From the IMG/VR virus record IMGVR_UViG_2698536506_000010: a DNA stretch of 43,693 nt. One strand, 5' to 3'. Positions 6,481 through 33,964 of this stretch are shown here, piece by piece (the stretch's first letter is position 1; each line of letters opens with the position of its first letter). The stretch is from a virus. Lineage: Duplodnaviria; Heunggongvirae; Uroviricota; Caudoviricetes. The notes under the pieces are model-generated. The model did no database searches and was not told where the DNA came from. It was given only the letters and a program-made list of their open reading frames with translations. The position numbers and the translations under genes were made by a program.

Positions 6481-6725
6481 GATGCCTCCCGCTTTTCTTT
6501 GATGTCGGCGCGGAGGTGAATCTCTTTCCCATCAGCTGTCGGGAATATCAGGATGTCATCGCGAACCGCGAGAAGATGGGCCACTGCAAATAGCGCCTCG
6601 TCTGTGACATCAAATTTCTCACCGGTGAACTCGCGAACACCGGGCGCCAATTTGCTCGGCTTTGAACGACCCGCGAAAATTCGCTTCGTCAGGCCTGTAA
6701 AACCTACTGTGATTGGGTTGCTCAT
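6477..6725 (-). CDS. Hypothetical protein (82 aa)
   Basis: AGAGGA RBS before ATG at 6725; first gene downstream of the putative tL1-like terminator. Confidence 0.45.
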   Translation of the reverse strand: MSNPITVGFTGLTKRIFAGRSKPSKLAPGVREFTGEKFDVTDEALFAVAHLLAVRDDILIFPTADGKEIHLRADIKEKREAS

Positions 6726-6844
6726 AAATCCTCTTGGCCTTATCGCGGCGAACGGAACGGTTAATACAAGACTTCTGCGCTAATGGGCGGTGGATGGCCG
6801 CCGGTTGTCATAACTAAGCCGCCTCGGTGAAGCGACTGAGGTAT

Positions 6845-6869
6845 GAAAAAAGCCGCTGGTTAGGCGGCT
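6845..6869 (-). terminator. Rho-independent terminator (tL1-like) on the minus strand
   Basis: Stem AGCCGC/GCGGCT with a 7-nt loop, followed on the minus strand by a U-run (plus-strand AAAAAA at 6845-6850). Confidence 0.45.
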
Positions 6870-7239
6870 ATTGATTGAAATTAAATGAGCGGGGAGATAT
6901 TTGGCTTGCAGCCCTGCAAAATGTGCTATCAAGGAATTGATACTTATGTCGCCACACTCTGCCGCGCTGATCACCATGCTTTGCACAATCAGGTCGGCGC
7001 ATCATGGTGAAATGAACCACTGTTTCGCTTGTAGCTTTAGGTTTACGCATGCTCTTACCCTCTGTCGTTACCCGCTGATGCGGGAGAAATGCTTTGTGGT
7101 GCAGCGCCGGGTGCTTATCTTCCGGTTGCCGTCGATGCAGCTGCAATTCACTGCACTACAAAACATTCCAGTTATTGCCGGGGTATTTATCCGCGCCCGG
7201 CGCGCGCTTTCCCGCTATTCCCCAACAGCAAGAAATCGC

Positions 7240-7581
7240 TTACTCTTTAAGCTCCCCAACAGTAGAAAGGATATGTTCATGCAAACCATGCGGACCGTGT
7301 GCCCTGACTGCGGAAGTGAGATGTTCAACCAGCCCGATGATTTTGACTTTGAGACAAATTTCACCGGCGTCAGTTGTGCTGACTGTGGTCGCGAAATCAC
7401 TAAGGACGATGTTGTCAATCAGGCCACGGACACGGTCAAAAAACAGATCGACGACATGCTCAGGAATTCCCTGAAAGGAGCTGGCTGGAAGTTCAAGTAA
7501 CTTTAAAAGCTCCCCGGTCTGGGTAAGCACTTCGCTGGCGTCTACATTGAGCAGTAGTGGCGCCATTTTTTTATCTGACAT
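7240..7581 (-). CDS. Hypothetical protein in the N-antiterminator position (113 aa); mutually exclusive with 7273..7500 plus
   Basis: First ORF downstream of the OL/pL region, GAGGGG RBS, followed by the 6845..6869 terminator; but no Arg-rich N-terminus like lambda N. Confidence 0.3.
   Translation of the reverse strand: MSDKKMAPLLLNVDASEVLTQTGELLKLLELPASSFQGIPEHVVDLFFDRVRGLIDNIVLSDFATTVSTTDAGEICLKVKIIGLVEHLTSAVRAHGPHGLHEHILSTVGELKE
7273..7500 (+). CDS. Alternative call: small zinc-ribbon protein (75 aa) antisense to the N-position ORF
   Basis: Two CxxC pairs (CPDCG...CADCG), AGGA RBS, protein-like sequence; same codon register as the minus-strand ORF, so composition cannot decide between them. 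Confidence 0.3.
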   Translation: MFMQTMRTVCPDCGSEMFNQPDDFDFETNFTGVSCADCGREITKDDVVNQATDTVKKQIDDMLRNSLKGAGWKFK

Positions 7582-7777
7582 ATACACCCCTCTGATTGTT
7601 TACCGTCAGCCCCTCGCAAAGAGCTGCTGGTAAATCGTTTAGCCATAATTGCCGCTCTTCCTGAGCCCGCCTATGGTCCGACGCATGGTTTACTGTCGCG
7701 CCGTTCGACTGACCGAATCTCCACTTCGCCGCTGGCTAACTTCGCTCAGCTGTCGATGTTTCGTTTCGATGGGGTAA

Positions 7778-7854
7778 ATTTAGCGTGATGCTAAATTATG
7801 CGCAATAGCAAAATGCTAAATTGTTGAATGGTTTTATTTAGCGTATTGATTAAT
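7778..7854. promoter_or_regulatory. OL operator cluster (three 19-bp palindromes) with leftward pL
   Basis: ATTTAGCgtgatGCTAAAT (7778-7796), cAATAGCaaaatGCTAAAT (about 7803-7821), ATTTAGCgtattGATTAAT (7836-7854); the same half-site recurs in OR. Confidence 0.6.
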
Positions 7855-7892
7855 AAGCGATTAAAAATTTACAGCGAAGGAATTCGGGACGT

Positions 7893-7936: not shown

Positions 7937-8614
7937 TTATGGGATGTTTAGTATTTTGGCATCAACCACAACGCCGATGATTTTGCAGTTTCCATTAATT
8001 TCTAGCATTGGATATGCGGGGTTAAGGGGCTTTAGGAAGCGTCTGCCGGCATCGATTACAAGCTTCTTAAAGGTCGCTTCGTTATCGCCTTCTAGCTTCG
8101 CGACAACCAGCTTTCCGTTGCGCGGCTCGACTTCAGGATCAACAAGTATCGCTGCTCCCTCGGGTATGCTCAGTCCAGCCGGGGAGGTCATAGAATCCCC
8201 TTTAACGTCCAGCCAGAATGAATCTTCTGAGCAGTCAACAGTCGTGTCATACCAGCGATCTATCGCTCTTCGGTGATAAGGTTCTACAGCTTCCATCCAT
8301 TGCCCCGCGCTTACCCAGCTGATTACAGGATAACTTCCTTTTGTCTCGTTCAGTCCTCGAAATGCAACGTTCGAAGGTTCTTCACTGGCGTGTAAAACAT
8401 CCATCCAGCCAAAAGGCAGATCAAGCGCAGTTTCAATTTTGCGAGCCATCTTATCGCCGATATTGCGATGAGGGTTTGGTCCCAGTAGCTGGCTAAGCGC
8501 AGCCGGACTTGTCTCGATGAGCTCGGCAAACTGCGCTTTGGTCATTCCAGACTCGTGCTGACGCTTCTCGTACAGCGCTTCCAGGTTGGCTTTTCTGATT
8601 TCTTTATTTTCCAT
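7937..8614 (-). CDS. cI: CI-like prophage repressor (N-terminal HTH, C-terminal S24/LexA-like peptidase domain) (226 aa)
   Basis: HTH region (MTKAQFAELIETSPAALSQLLG) plus S24-type C-terminus (GDSMTSP...GKLVVAKLEG); divergent from the cro-like gene with operators between; start placed at internal ATG 8614 to leave the operator region non-coding. Confidence 0.8.
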   Translation of the reverse strand: MENKEIRKANLEALYEKRQHESGMTKAQFAELIETSPAALSQLLGPNPHRNIGDKMARKIETALDLPFGWMDVLHASEEPSNVAFRGLNETKGSYPVISWVSAGQWMEAVEPYHRRAIDRWYDTTVDCSEDSFWLDVKGDSMTSPAGLSIPEGAAILVDPEVEPRNGKLVVAKLEGDNEATFKKLVIDAGRRFLKPLNPAYPMLEINGNCKIIGVVVDAKILNIP

Positions 8615-8631
8615 ACCTGCATTGTTACTGC

Positions 8632-8699
8632 TTTTAGCAAAATGATAAATGTGCAAATTGCTAAATGATGCTTGCGTAGTATTTAGCATAACGCTAAAC
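8632..8699. promoter_or_regulatory. OR operator cluster with divergent pRM and pR
   Basis: TTTTAGCaaaatGATAAAT (8632-8650), a GCTAAAT half-site (8660-8666), ATTTAGCataacGCTAAAC (8681-8699); candidate pR TTGCGT-N17-TAAACT reading toward cro. Confidence 0.6.
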
Positions 8700-8730
8700 T
8701 CCAAATCAAACGACTCACCCGGAGACACCA

Positions 8731-8964
8731 ATGAGAACTGAACTACACCGCTGGCGCAAGGCCGCCACTACCGACGAATGGGCGCAGCTCGCAAAGTTGG
8801 CTAACACGACGCCAGGTTACCTGGACCAGATCGCCTACGGAAATCGCCGGGCATTTCCAGAAATGGCATCTGCTATCGAGAAAGGCACGAAGAATTTTCA
8901 CCGCCAGGCTCCGGTCCTAAAAGAAAGCCTGGTATTCGCATCGCCGCGTGATACTGCGGCCTAA
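8731..8964 (+). CDS. cro: Cro-like HTH regulator (YdaS-family resemblance) (77 aa)
   Basis: First rightward gene after OR, GGAG RBS; motif AKLANTTPGYLDQIAYGNRR...PEMASAIEKGTKN resembles YdaS/Cro-type HTH proteins. Confidence 0.65.
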   Translation: MRTELHRWRKAATTDEWAQLAKLANTTPGYLDQIAYGNRRAFPEMASAIEKGTKNFHRQAPVLKESLVFASPRDTAA

Positions 8965-8981
8965 CCACGAAAGGGAAAGCA

Positions 8982-9527
8982 ATGCATTCACTTGCGTATC
9001 AACAAGGTAACAAATTTTCGCCAACGGCGATGATTTACCAGAATCGCCGGGAGCCTGATTCCGCGGCGTTAAACATCGATGGGATCCGCGCTGCTGTTCG
9101 CGCCTGGGCAGCTGATTGCCGAAGCCGTGAATTTGTCGCCGCGCTGATCGTGGAAGAGTGGCGGGCGTCCGGCGGAACCGGTCTAGATATCCCGACTGAC
9201 TCGCACCGCCAGATGCAGAAAGTGTTTCGATGGATTGATGGCGATACCGAATACGCCGCCAACAACATTCGCCAGCTGGCCCCGGCAATCATGTCGGTCC
9301 TGCCGCTGGAGTACCGAAACCGTCTGGCGCCGCAGAACGACACGATGTCGCTGATCGCCTCTGCGATGAAAGAGTGTGCCGAGGCTAAACAGGCCGTGCT
9401 GCTGGACGCTCCAGAGCATCAGAAGCTCAAAGAGGTAAGCGAGGGTATAGCGTCGCTGTTCCGCCTCATGCCGGAGCAGGTAGGACCGCTGATGACGATG
9501 GTTACATCGATGCTGGGGGTTATATGA
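8982..9527 (+). CDS. YdaT-family protein in the cII position (181 aa)
   Basis: Pattern WRASGGTGLDIP...QKVFRWIDGDTEYAANNIRQLAPAIMSVLPLEYRNRL matches recalled E. coli YdaT; immediately follows the YdaS-like gene. Confidence 0.55.
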   Translation: MHSLAYQQGNKFSPTAMIYQNRREPDSAALNIDGIRAAVRAWAADCRSREFVAALIVEEWRASGGTGLDIPTDSHRQMQKVFRWIDGDTEYAANNIRQLAPAIMSVLPLEYRNRLAPQNDTMSLIASAMKECAEAKQAVLLDAPEHQKLKEVSEGIASLFRLMPEQVGPLMTMVTSMLGVI

Positions 9528-33467: not shown

Positions 33468-33964
33468 TGCCAATTATCGACTATCCCGACTGGCTGCCGC
33501 TGGCGCAGAAGGCCAGCAAAAACATGACTCTCGATACCGGGTTCCAGACCGATCAGCCAGCGGTCGGCCCGGCTATCTTCGAGAATCAAACCGACGACCT
33601 GAAAGTGACCTGGTCGCTGACGTGGATCTTCACTCTGGCTGAGGAGCGAGCATTCCAGCAGTGGCTGCGCAGCCCAAACTATCTCAACCGGGGCCTGAAC
33701 TGGTTCAGGATGAATATCAATCTGGGCGGCAGTGGTCTCCAGTTGCAAGAGCTTCACTTCACGCAGATGCCGGTGCAAACCAGTATCGACGGCGGGGTGG
33801 TGACATGGACAGGAACCGTTATTGCCAACCATCTGTACAACGCTGACGACGAGTTTGACGACGTAATTGTTGAGCTGCCGCCGCCGTGGCCTTCAGTGCT
33901 TGATATCGTGGTGACTGGCTATCCGGACGGACGCGATCCAGAAAGTCTTCCGAGGGTTCCCTGA
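33467..33964 (+). CDS. Minor tail protein (lambda gpM position) (165 aa)
   Basis: Start overlaps the tape-measure stop. Confidence 0.45.
   Translation: MPIIDYPDWLPLAQKASKNMTLDTGFQTDQPAVGPAIFENQTDDLKVTWSLTWIFTLAEERAFQQWLRSPNYLNRGLNWFRMNINLGGSGLQLQELHFTQMPVQTSIDGGVVTWTGTVIANHLYNADDEFDDVIVELPPPWPSVLDIVVTGYPDGRDPESLPRVP

What the first reader, a model, noticed from the sequence alone, without database searches (positions are those of the whole stretch)
6845..7590. N-antiterminator position holds two mutually exclusive overlapping ORFs plus a downstream tL1-like terminator
Downstream of OL/pL the minus strand has a 113-aa ORF (GAGGGG RBS) followed about 370 nt later by a clean minus-strand terminator, the lambda pL-N-tL1 layout; but the protein lacks an Arg-rich N-like motif. 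On the plus strand, in the same codon register, is a very protein-like 75-aa zinc-ribbon ORF. Only one can be real. If the antisense gene is real it is convergent with pL. A boxA-like GCTCTTT element is present in the leader but I could not find a convincing boxB hairpin.
Basis: partly seen in the sequence, partly recalled or inferred. Interest (0 to 1): 0.45.

Follow-up and report, generated by a model that had tools for sequence, protein, structure and literature searches.

The report
Antisense gene pair after putL RNA
Downstream of this prophage's early-left promoter sits a known RNA antiterminator (putL, so no N protein is needed), followed by a ~350-bp cassette in which both DNA strands appear to encode a conserved small protein in the same codon positions, a comparatively well-supported case of overlapping antisense genes.

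Summary
A 113-aa minus ORF (7240-7581) and a 73/75-aa zinc-ribbon plus ORF (7279/7273-7500) share one codon register. A clean minus-strand terminator lies at 6845-6869, 371 nt past the minus stop.

The N-like reading fails. The pL leader carries an HK022-type putL RNA (core 7641-7703), identical to the element annotated in phage HK639. That accounts for the missing Arg-rich motif and boxB. The "boxA-like" GCTCTTT sits inside a stable hairpin. The terminator is homologous to phi80 tL1A. A further 60-aa ORF (6868-7050) occupies the slot where phi80 has its N gene.

"Only one can be real" is probably wrong.
- **Plus ORF:** strongly constrained (dN/dS 0.15, four invariant Cys, NCBIfam ECs_2282).
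- **Minus ORF:** its 27 codons outside the overlap evolve as coding sequence (dN/dS 0.44, no stops, conserved SD and ATG). Its N-terminal motif persists in 35 protein clusters. Its frame stays open in 24/24 lineages (p about 0.001-0.01 under plus-only selection).

The pair moves as a cassette between different prophage positions. The minus gene is always co-oriented with the surrounding operon and the plus gene always opposes it. The function of either protein is unknown.

The parts
7777..7860 (-). OL/pL region. Three operator-like inverted repeats: 7777-7795, 7804-7821 and 7835-7857. pL: -35 TTGCGC at 7800-7805 and -10 TAAATT at 7777-7782.
   Evidence: Read from the sequence. The position corresponds to the pL annotated in HK639 and to the -10 annotated in phi80. 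The strict consensus scan does not call it.
7727..7776 (-). 5' leader segment shared with phi80, HK225 and HK639. Downstream of this point phi80 continues with boxA/nutL, whereas this window continues with put.
   Evidence: 98% identity to phi80 over 51 nt. The phi80 leader was read.
7641..7703 (-). putL antiterminator RNA core. It has two stem-loops. The AACCAT -10-like element lies in the loop of stem I.
   Evidence: 79% identical to HK022, HK75 and O276 putL. Identical to the HK639 leader. The alignment and RNAalifold give 19 pairs, 6 of them with compensatory changes. It is the only copy in the window.
7602..7635 (-). Stable hairpin between the put core and the minus ORF. It lies inside the 126-nt feature that the HK639 record calls putL-like.
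   Evidence: dG -16.9, z -4.0. It is retained in relatives (L052, L156) whose put core is replaced by a phi80-type boxA leader.
7240..7581 (-). 113-aa ORF (equivalent to HK639_45), the first gene of the pL operon. SD GAGGGG at 7587-7592. Codons 1-27 (7501-7581) lie outside the plus ORF. Codons 29-103 are antisense, in register, to the plus ORF.
   Evidence: The frame is open in 24/24 lineages. The representatives search found 35 clusters that share the N-terminal motif. AF2 predicts helices 16-29 and 41-56 with pLDDT 86-91. SD and ATG are conserved.
7279..7500 (+). Zinc-ribbon gene of the ECs_2282 family: 73 aa from ATG 7279, or 75 aa from ATG 7273. SD AAAGGA at 7266-7271. It is convergent with pL.
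   Evidence: NF047912 scores 83 bits against a cutoff of 37. Homologues reach down to 59% identity in about 10 genera. dN/dS is 0.15, with the codon-position pattern 3>1>2. PGAP annotates it, over-extended to 184 aa.
7218..7262 (+). Direct repeat upstream of the plus ORF: TTCCCCAACAG (7218-7228) and CTCCCCAACAG (7252-7262). A putative plus promoter overlaps it: -35 TTCCCC at 7218-7223, a 17-nt spacer, and -10 TACTCT at 7241-7246.
   Evidence: The repeat matches 10-11 of 11 positions, with spacing 33-34 nt, at the same place in 14 of 17 lineages. The two copies change together between lineages. The promoter assignment is by eye on the alignment; the TAnnnT pattern is kept.
7192..7206 (+). GC hairpin upstream of the repeat, with compensatory changes between lineages. 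Its role is unknown.
   Evidence: Alignment; fold.
6868..7050 (-). 60-aa ORF in the slot where phi80 has its N gene, ending at the terminator. Its status as a gene is uncertain.
   Evidence: Full-length match to phrog_17199, E 2.8e-24. Window 7048-7096, which includes the RBS region, is 96% identical to the region upstream of phi80 N. Only one homologue cluster was found. No similarity to phi80 N.
6845..6869 (-). Intrinsic terminator, equivalent to tL1.
   Evidence: Found by the scan. z is -3.6. It lies in a stretch that is 82% identical to the phi80 region holding the annotated tL1A.

Best explanation
The locus is the start of the early-left operon of an HK639/phi80-like lambdoid prophage that uses RNA-mediated antitermination.

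Transcription and antitermination:
- Shown by homology: transcripts from pL (about 7777-7805, leftward) first make a putL RNA (7641-7703).
- Inferred from HK022: the put RNA binds the transcribing polymerase and lets it read through the tL1-type terminator at 6845-6869 into the kil/gam/bet genes.
- No N protein is involved.

The cassette:
- Between put and the terminator lies a mobile ~350-400-bp cassette. Both of its strands code, in the same triplets.
- The minus strand, sense to pL, encodes a 113-aa early protein. Its functional part is the N-terminal ~58 residues, a helical hairpin.
- The plus strand encodes a 73-aa zinc-ribbon protein of the ECs_2282 family.
- The plus gene probably has its own weak promoter, flanked by two co-varying repeat motifs.

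Inferred mechanism:
- The plus gene behaves like a moron. It would be expressed in the lysogen, when pL is repressed.
- It would be shut off by convergent antiterminated transcription and antisense pairing once pL fires.
- At that point the minus protein would be made instead.
- The biochemical roles of the two proteins are unknown.
For: put RNA:
- Window 7648-7710 is 79% identical to putL of HK022, HK75 and O276.
- The leader from 7578 to about 7770 is identical to HK639, whose record annotates 'putL-like antiterminator RNA' and pL at these places, apart from 3 mismatches at the 3' end.
- Two stems are predicted, with 6 compensatory pairs.
- The terminator is homologous to the phi80 tL1A region.

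Plus gene:
- NF047912 scores 83 bits.
- Homologues are 72-76 aa long in Hafnia, Klebsiella, Yersinia, Serratia and other genera. The second Cys pair is invariant and the first pair nearly so.
- Pairwise differences at plus codon positions 1/2/3 are 0.166/0.123/0.361, and dN/dS is 0.15.
- SD and ATG are conserved.
- The gene persists alone in L009.

Minus gene:
- In the 26 codons outside the overlap the pattern switches to minus positions 1/2/3 = 0.357/0.266/0.495.
- There, pN/pS is 0.59 (CI 0.42-0.78) and JC dN/dS is 0.44. The frame has 0 stops, against 18-67 in the other five frames.
- SD and ATG are present in 15 lineages despite unrelated upstream DNA.
- 35 clusters (one representative per 50%-identity cluster) share the N-terminal motif x[IL]x[IV]x[IVL]D[AT]SE..Q..EL..LL.
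- The frame is open through the overlap in 24/24 lineages and 12/12 clades. In plus-only simulations with codon usage, P(all open) is 0.0007 and P(at least 11 of 12) is 0.013.
- 78% of plus Leu codons are CTC, which reads as Glu GAG on the minus strand. Simulations give 26%, p<0.001.
- AF2 gives pLDDT 86-91 for residues 21-50, a stretch that spans the overlap boundary.
- For minus codons 29-58, dNN/dSN is 0.44 against a null of 0.66 (p about 0.06).

Cassette behaviour:
- The same pair lies after putL, after a lambda-N-like gene (L078), after a P22-gp24-like gene (L064), after lysis genes (L065, L068) and after a tape-measure gene (L010).
- The minus ORF is always co-oriented with its neighbours.
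- The repeat pair is reported.
- Rac sieB is a precedent for an exclusion gene that opposes the pL operon.
Against: - There are no expression data for either strand.
- Over the whole overlap the OLGenie-type ratio for the minus frame (0.72) equals the plus-only null (0.80). Codons 59-103 show none (1.05).
- The open-frame p-value depends on my mutation-selection model and on how independent the clades are. One lineage with a broken minus frame (L009) was excluded from the alignment.
- The triplet alignment was built on the minus translation.
- AF2 is poor for the minus C-terminal half and for the whole plus protein.
- PGAP never annotates the minus ORF.
- The promoter for the plus gene is weak by consensus, and the scan does not call it.
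- The lysogen/lytic toggle is inference only.
- The experimental proof that the HK639 element antiterminates rests on my memory of King et al. 2011. That paper could not be opened.
Confidence: 0.6

Rival explanations
1. Only the plus-strand zinc-ribbon gene is a functional gene. On this view the minus ORF is a shadow ORF. It may well be translated, because it lies first on the pL transcript behind a good SD. It is kept open mainly by the genetic code and codon choice, and its product has no function.
For: - The plus frame alone shows strong purifying selection in the overlap (dN/dS 0.15), whereas the naive value for the minus frame is 1.1.
- The minus dNN/dSN is not different from the plus-only null.
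- The single-sequence probability of an open antisense frame is about 0.4.
- The plus gene survives without the minus ORF in L009.
- PGAP annotates only the plus gene.
Against: - It does not explain the coding signature, the absence of stops, or the conserved SD and ATG in the 27 codons outside the overlap.
- It does not explain the N-terminal motif kept in 35 diverged clusters.
- It does not explain 12/12 clades staying open (p 0.0007-0.013) or the 78% CTC bias.
- It does not explain the confident AF2 hairpin.
Confidence: 0.22
2. Only the minus-strand 113-aa ORF is real, as annotated in the HK639 GenBank record. On this view the zinc-ribbon ORF is its antisense shadow.
For: - HK639_45 is annotated on this strand.
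- The ORF is co-oriented with the operon in every context.
- It is the longer ORF and has a strong SD.
Against: - The substitution pattern in the overlap is that of plus-strand coding: the third position of the plus frame varies most.
- The four Cys are kept while their codons change synonymously, which appears as A/T, I/V and K/E changes in the minus protein.
- The curated NCBIfam model hits far above its cutoff.
- If only the minus frame were coding, P(plus frame open) would be 0.05-0.2 per lineage, yet it is open in all.
- The plus ORF is intact where the minus ORF is broken.
Confidence: 0.03
3. The 113-aa protein is an N-type antiterminator that acts at a nut site in the leader (boxA-like GCTCTTT), in a pL-N-tL1 layout.
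For: - The ORF is the first after pL, and a tL1-type terminator lies downstream.
- Relatives L052 and L156 combine the same cassette with a phi80-type boxA leader.
Against: - The protein has no Arg-rich motif and no Pfam hit.
- It shows no similarity to phi80 N or HK022 Nun.
- A put RNA is present that makes N unnecessary.
- GCUCUUU is paired in a hairpin.
- The cassette also sits in late and tail operons.
Confidence: 0.02

Closest known systems
putL antiterminator RNA of phages HK022 and HK639 (King et al. 1996; Banik-Maiti et al. 1997; King et al. 2011, cited from PMC9378689; putRNA-polymerase structure in PMC9378689)
   Same: - Position: just downstream of pL.
- Architecture: two stem-loops.
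- Sequence: 79% identity to HK022 putL over 63 nt. It is identical to the HK639 element apart from 3 mismatches at the 3' end of the annotated feature.
- The AACCAT -10-like element that PMC9378689 reports as identical in all putL sequences is present.
   Different: - It starts about 65 nt after the presumed transcription start rather than immediately after it.
- The window has no putR copy, unlike HK022.
- The gene that follows is not nun.
phi80 pL - nutL - N - tL1A layout (GenBank JX871397 annotation)
   Same: - The first ~50 nt of the leader match.
- The region upstream of the N-slot ORF, including its RBS, matches.
- The tL1A terminator region is homologous (98%, 96% and 82% identity).
   Different: - boxA/nutL is replaced by put.
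- The N gene is replaced by an unrelated 60-aa ORF.
- The overlapping-gene cassette is inserted between the leader and the N slot.
NCBIfam NF047912, ECs_2282 family putative zinc-binding protein
   Same: The plus ORF scores 83 bits against a cutoff of 37, across the full 60-residue model. RefSeq annotates it under this name in all E. coli copies.
   Different: The family has no known function. The RefSeq model for this prophage is over-extended to 184 aa. The family description says nothing about a gene on the other strand.
Experimentally supported antisense overlapping genes of E. coli O157:H7 (for example oloz0137, oloz4542 and oloz5029; PMC9927249)
   Same: A protein-coding ORF embedded antisense in another gene, with its own SD and start codon.
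   Different: - Those genes are taxonomically narrow, lie outside prophages, and are supported by Ribo-seq and phenotypes.
- This pair has no expression data.
- This pair is conserved across many genera and more than 30 diverged clusters, moves as a cassette, and the shorter gene lies entirely inside the longer one.
Lysogen-expressed exclusion genes that oppose the early-left operon (sieB of the Rac prophage; the superinfection exclusion gene downstream of put in Salmonella phage S9-5)
   Same: A small gene convergent with pL transcription, in the region next to the immunity region.
   Different: - There is no sequence similarity.
- sieB does not share its codons with an operon gene.
- Expression of the zinc-ribbon gene in lysogens is inferred, not shown.

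Membership tests
put antiterminator RNA (HK022 type) | Sequence homology to an experimentally defined put site | tested here: met
   blastn: 79.4% over 63 nt to putL of HK022, HK75 and O276, E 9e-6. Identical to the HK639 annotated element apart from 3 mismatches at its 3' end. The covariance-model score of 96 bits is circular, because the window sequence was in the seed.
put antiterminator RNA (HK022 type) | Two adjacent stem-loops, about 65-70 nt | tested here: met
   The RNAalifold consensus over 7 sequences has stem I with 6 pairs and stem II with 13 pairs, 6 of them with compensatory changes. The window sequence alone gives the same fold. The single-sequence z-score is only -0.9.
put antiterminator RNA (HK022 type) | Location on the nascent transcript of an early promoter, upstream of terminators | tested here: met
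   It lies about 65-130 nt downstream of pL as placed by the HK639 and phi80 annotation. An intrinsic terminator lies 770 nt further on.
put antiterminator RNA (HK022 type) | Promotes terminator readthrough in cis, and depends on the beta' zinc-binding domain of RNA polymerase | not testable with these tools
   This needs a reporter assay or an in vitro assay. It is known for HK022 (PMC9378689). For HK639 I rely on memory of King et al. 2011, which is not held in the library.
Lambda-type N antiterminator (for the 113-aa ORF) | N-terminal arginine-rich motif, or sequence similarity to N proteins | tested here: not met
   No Pfam, NCBIfam or PADLOC hit. The N-terminus MSDKKMAPLLLNVDASE is not Arg-rich. 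No similarity to phi80 N or HK022 Nun.
Lambda-type N antiterminator (for the 113-aa ORF) | Cognate nut site (single-stranded boxA plus boxB hairpin) in the leader | tested here: not met
   The only boxA-like string is base-paired in a hairpin of dG -16.9. The leader is otherwise occupied by put. I did not run a dedicated boxB search.
ECs_2282 zinc-binding protein family (NF047912) | Score above the curated cutoff with the CxxC...CxxC core | tested here: met
   83.2 bits against a cutoff of 37, covering model positions 4-60 of 60. The second Cys pair is invariant and the first pair is kept in at least 90% of sequences.
Functional antisense overlapping gene pair | Purifying selection on each frame that the other frame cannot explain | tested here: inconclusive
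   - Plus frame: clear, with dNN/dNS 0.24.
- Minus frame outside the overlap: clear, with dN/dS 0.44, supported by motif conservation.
- Minus frame inside the overlap: only marginal, at 0.44 against a null of 0.66 for codons 29-58 (p about 0.06). Codons 59-103 show none.
- Frame openness (p 0.0007-0.013) and the CTC bias (p<0.001) are significant.
Functional antisense overlapping gene pair | Translation signals for both ORFs | tested here: met
   An SD-like motif lies 5-10 nt before a conserved ATG for both ORFs in 15 lineages.
Functional antisense overlapping gene pair | Both products expressed, and each with a phenotype | not testable with these tools
   This needs Ribo-seq or proteomics, together with strand-specific stop mutants.
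Intrinsic terminator tL1 | GC hairpin plus a U-run on the pL strand, downstream of the first early gene(s) | tested here: met
   Scan hit with 6 pairs and TTTTTT. z is -3.6. It is homologous to the region of phi80 tL1A.

The most novel reading that the evidence does not exclude
The cassette is a strand toggle.
- In the lysogen, the plus strand would express a zinc-ribbon protein from its own promoter. This protein could be a defence or exclusion factor (weak PADLOC link to candidate PDC-M14A). The promoter would be autoregulated through the two co-varying repeats.
- On induction, put-modified (or N- or Q-modified) polymerases would cross the cassette on the other strand. They would silence the plus gene by collision and antisense pairing.
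- At the same time they would produce, from the very same codons, a partner protein that counteracts or replaces it.

Two functionally linked proteins would then be locked together by being encoded on complementary strands. That would explain why they always travel as one unit.
Probability: 0.2. Interest if true: 0.85.

Novelty: new member of a known kind. Interest (0 to 1): 0.55.

Why it matters
- **Annotation conflict.** RefSeq calls only the plus gene, over-extended to 184 aa. The HK639 GenBank record calls only the minus gene. The comparative data suggest that each record is half right.
- **A model for antisense overlapping genes.** Whether long antisense overlapping genes really exist in bacteria and phages is disputed. 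Most candidates are taxonomically narrow. This pair is small and mobile, and it is conserved across many enterobacterial genera. Stop mutants that are synonymous on the other strand are easy to design, which makes it a convenient test case.
- **Classification of the prophage.** This prophage type belongs with the rare lambdoids that use RNA-mediated (HK022/HK639-type) antitermination, and it has a single put site.

Tried and rejected
- **Rfam.** No family reached its gathering score in the window. Only chance-level hits appeared at 6800-7850. I saw no put family hit in Rfam 15.
- **N or Nun membership of the 113-aa ORF.** No family hits and no pairwise similarity.
- **The 60-aa ORF as an N remnant.** It has no similarity to phi80 N. 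Only one homologue cluster exists in 5.8 billion proteins. Its status stays open.
- **Naive OLGenie-type ratio.** The value dNN/dSN = 0.72 looked like selection on the minus frame. Simulations under plus-only selection give 0.80, so I rejected it as evidence.
- **Structure.** AF2 models were only partly confident. Foldseek against BFVD found nothing significant. PDB sequence searches gave only generic zinc-finger noise.
- **A second put (putR) in the window.** None was found. The best other hit scores 11 bits, E 0.16.
- **A homologue in the E. coli K-12 Rac prophage, where expression data might exist.** None was found.
- **Literature.** There are no papers on ECs_2282. King et al. 2011 is not held in the library. 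The EHEC overlapping-gene paper does not concern this locus.
- **Consensus promoter scan.** It found no site on either strand, not even pL.
- **A terminator for the plus gene beyond its stop codon.** None is convincing by eye (TGGCGCCA followed by T7 cannot form a hairpin).
Full report
**1. What is in the sequence**

The window is a lambdoid prophage. A LexA/S24-type repressor lies at 7937-8731 on the minus strand and a cro-like gene at 8731-8964 on the plus strand. The early-left promoter therefore fires leftward, on the minus strand.

All features in the finding are present:
- A minus ORF at 7240-7581 (113 aa from the ATG), with the SD GAGGGG at 7587-7592.
- A plus ORF at 7273-7500 (75 aa, CPDCG...CADCG). 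It uses the same triplets, so plus codon position 1 faces minus position 3.
- A minus-strand intrinsic terminator at 6845-6869, 371 nt beyond the minus stop.
- The string GCTCTTT at 7618-7624.

In one sequence the double ORF is not unusual. Given the plus protein and the window's codon usage, the antisense in-register frame would be open with p about 0.39.

**2. The leader carries a put RNA, not a nut site**

- Megablast shows that window 7055-7778 is 93% identical to phage HK639. That record annotates a 'putL-like antiterminator RNA' and a putative pL at the corresponding positions.
- The alignment is identical from the transcript start through the put region. The only differences are 3 mismatches near the start of the minus ORF.
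- A more sensitive search matches window 7648-7710 to putL of HK022, HK75 and O276 (79% over 63 nt). It also matches unannotated elements in Erwinia phage phiEt88, Salmonella phages UPF_BP1 and S9-5, and Enterobacter phage CobraSix.
- Aligned with HK022 putL and putR, the sequences give a two-stem consensus with 19 pairs. Six pairs, all in stem II, carry compensatory changes.
- The AACCAT -10-like element is present. PMC9378689 reports this element as identical in all putL sequences.
- A covariance model finds no second copy in the window. The best other hit scores 11 bits.
- Rfam gives no put match.

The first ~50 nt of the leader (7727-7777) match phi80. Phi80 then continues with its annotated boxA, whereas the window continues with put.

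The 'boxA-like' GCUCUUU lies inside a stable hairpin at 7602-7635 (dG -16.9, z -4.0). In relatives L052 and L156 the put core is replaced by a phi80-type boxA leader, yet this hairpin is kept. It therefore belongs to the cassette side and is unlikely to be a boxA.

The mechanism is taken from HK022. There, the nascent put RNA binds RNA polymerase through the beta' zinc-binding domain and suppresses pausing and termination without protein factors (PMC9378689). That HK639 does the same rests on my memory of King et al. 2011, which I could not open.

**3. The terminator and the real N slot**

- Window 6721-6874 is 82% identical to the phi80 region that contains the annotated rho-independent tL1A.
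- Window 7048-7096 is 96% identical to the region just upstream of the phi80 N start codon.
- Between these two stretches the window has a 60-aa minus ORF (6868-7050), not phi80 N.
- That ORF has the same GAGGG SD region as phi80 N. It matches phrog_17199 over its full length (E 2.8e-24).
- It has no similarity to phi80 N and only one homologue cluster.

The '370-nt gap' is therefore not empty. The 113-aa ORF is an insertion between the leader and the N slot.

**4. Which of the two overlapping ORFs is real?**

Public annotation disagrees. The HK639 record calls the minus ORF (HK639_45). RefSeq calls only the plus ORF, as an 'ECs_2282 family putative zinc-binding protein', in all 33 of 5,426 complete E. 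coli genomes that carry the cassette.

Both translations find homologues:
- The plus protein has homologues down to 59% identity in about ten genera.
- The minus protein has homologues down to 64% identity, nearly all 113 aa long.

I fetched 166 related loci. I reduced them to 71 unique sequences and then to 24 lineages in 12 clades. I built a triplet alignment, which serves both frames because the codons coincide.

*Plus frame*
- In the overlap, mean pairwise differences at plus codon positions 1/2/3 are 0.166/0.123/0.361. JC dN/dS is 0.15.
- With the effect on the other frame held fixed, dNN/dNS is 0.24 (CI 0.17-0.31).
- The second Cys pair is invariant and the first pair is nearly so.
- Synonymous changes in their codons and in PDDFDF appear in the minus protein as A/T, I/V and K/E swaps.
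- NF047912 scores 83 bits against a cutoff of 37.
- AAGGA plus ATG is conserved. The start shared with relatives is ATG 7279, because 7273 reads ATA in close relatives.
- The 184-aa RefSeq model is an over-extension. Homologues are 72-76 aa long, and the open frame upstream varies from 76 to 208 codons among near-identical phages.

The plus gene is real.

*Minus frame*
- Outside the overlap (codons 2-27, window 7501-7578) the pattern switches to minus positions 1/2/3 = 0.357/0.266/0.495.
- There, pN/pS is 0.59 (CI 0.42-0.78) and JC dN/dS is 0.44. The minus frame has no stop in any lineage, against 18-67 stops in each of the other five frames.
- Every lineage has an SD-like motif and an ATG at the same place, although the DNA upstream is unrelated between contexts.
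- A profile search of 1.8 billion representative proteins finds 35 clusters, one per 50%-identity cluster. Most are 91-116 aa long.
- All of these keep the N-terminal pattern x[IL]x[IV]x[IVL]D[AT]SE..Q..EL..LL. All also keep a C-terminal [AT][AT][ILV]R[AT]G, which is the antisense image of CP[DE]CG.
- AF2 predicts helices 16-29 and 41-56 with pLDDT 86-91. This is a hairpin that crosses the overlap boundary. The rest is poorly predicted.

*Tests inside the overlap*
- The OLGenie-type ratio for the minus frame is 0.72. My simulations of plus-only selection on the same tree, matched for divergence, give 0.80. This ratio is therefore not evidence.
- Split by region, codons 29-58 give 0.44 against a null of 0.66 (p about 0.06). 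Codons 59-103 give 1.05.
- Two other statistics do reject the plus-only null.
- First, the minus frame is open in 24/24 lineages and 12/12 clades. With the window's codon usage included, simulations give P(all open) = 0.0007 and P(at least 11 of 12) = 0.013.
- Second, 78% of plus Leu codons are CTC, which reads as Glu GAG in the minus frame. Simulations give 26%, and none of 1,500 reaches 78%.
- One lineage does break the minus frame. L009 is a chromosomal copy in Leclercia next to arsC. It lacks the N-terminal domain and uses a CTA Leu codon, while its plus ORF is intact. I had excluded it from the alignment, so '12 of 13' is the fair count.

My reading is that the minus ORF is a real early gene. 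Its constrained part is the first ~58 residues. The remainder is kept open, but its sequence is dictated by the zinc-ribbon gene.

**5. Context and a likely logic**

The pair moves as a unit of about 350-400 bp. Nucleotide homology runs from about 7172-7214 to about 7505-7585. It is found:
- after putL (this window and HK639);
- after a lambda-N-like gene (L078);
- after a P22-gp24-like gene (L064);
- directly after repressor genes;
- after lysis genes (L065, L068);
- after a tape-measure gene (L010).

In every case the minus ORF points the same way as the surrounding operon, and the plus ORF opposes it.

Upstream of the plus ORF, most lineages share two features:
- A GC hairpin with compensatory changes.
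- An 11-nt direct repeat 33-34 nt apart (14 of 17 lineages; window 7218-7228 and 7252-7262). Its two copies change together between lineages: CCCCAACAG, CCCCAATAG or CCACAGTCA.

The first copy coincides with a -35-like TTCCCC. It is followed after 17 nt by a conserved TAnnnT (TACTCT, 7241-7246). The second copy would lie at the transcript start. This looks like a weak promoter with two operators for a cassette-encoded protein.

The inference is that the zinc-ribbon gene is a moron-like gene expressed when the operon around it is silent, as sieB is in Rac. The plus protein has a weak hit to the PADLOC candidate PDC-M14A (E 8e-6). On induction, antiterminated transcription would cross the cassette on the other strand. 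That would interfere with the plus gene and produce the minus protein. None of this is shown.

**6. Comparison with what is known, and verdict**

- The put RNA and the terminator are known elements. The put core is identical to that of HK639.
- The plus gene belongs to a named family of unknown function.
- The minus gene is an annotated hypothetical protein in one phage record.
- I found no literature treating the two as a dual-coding pair.

The new point is that both frames appear to be under selection. Antisense overlapping genes are a known, though debated, kind (PMC9927249). This is a new and unusually widely conserved member of that kind, supported only by comparative evidence so far.

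Noticed in passing
window 7186-7272 (repeat copies 7218-7228 and 7252-7262; hairpin 7192-7206): A conserved GC hairpin with compensatory changes lies here, together with an 11-nt direct repeat spaced 33-34 nt apart. The two repeat copies co-vary between lineages (CCCCAACAG, CCCCAATAG, CCACAGTCA). The repeat overlaps a putative weak promoter and the transcript start of the zinc-ribbon gene. It looks like a pair of operators for a cassette-encoded protein.
   Followed up: partly
window 6946-7500 (+) and 7240-7587 (-); L002, L001: Public annotations conflict. RefSeq/PGAP calls only the plus gene and extends it to 184 aa, across the 60-aa minus ORF. The HK639 GenBank record calls only the minus ORF. 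The NCBIfam model covers only residues 118-173 of the long form.
   Followed up: yes
window 6868-7050 (-), hairpin 7071-7084: A basic 60-aa ORF (MRKPKATSE...) sits exactly where phi80 has its N gene. It has the same upstream hairpin and SD region and ends at the tL1A-like terminator. It matches phrog_17199 over its full length. It has only one homologue cluster and no similarity to phi80 N.
   Followed up: partly
L052 3362-3545 and L156 2766-2949 (equivalent to window 7635-7726): In close relatives the put core alone is swapped for a ~180-nt phi80-type leader with a boxA-like CTGCTCATTAAGAA. The flanks on both sides stay over 96% identical. The put site is therefore a separate mosaic module, and the same cassette serves both put-type and nut-type phages.
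   Followed up: partly
whole window; right operon 8731-9527: There is no putR-like copy anywhere in the window, so the prophage has a single put site, unlike HK022. The right operon starts with a cro-like gene and a YdaT-family gene, as in the Rac prophage. How early-right transcription passes its terminators was not examined.
   Followed up: partly
L009 2990-3230 (Leclercia adecarboxylata chromosome, next to arsC): This is an orphan copy of the zinc-ribbon gene (47% identity) outside an obvious prophage. The antisense frame is broken by two stops and the minus N-terminal domain is absent. It shows that the plus gene can persist alone.
   Followed up: partly
window 33660-33732 (+): A weak covariance-model hit to the put model (11 bits, E 0.16) contains a UUCAGGAUGAA stem-II-like loop. 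It is probably chance.
   Followed up: no
L003 1071-1336 (phi80, next to kil): The phi80 record itself annotates two mutually antisense ORFs (PHI80_43 and PHI80_44) in the early-left region. The same kind of ambiguity may recur in this part of lambdoid genomes.
   Followed up: no
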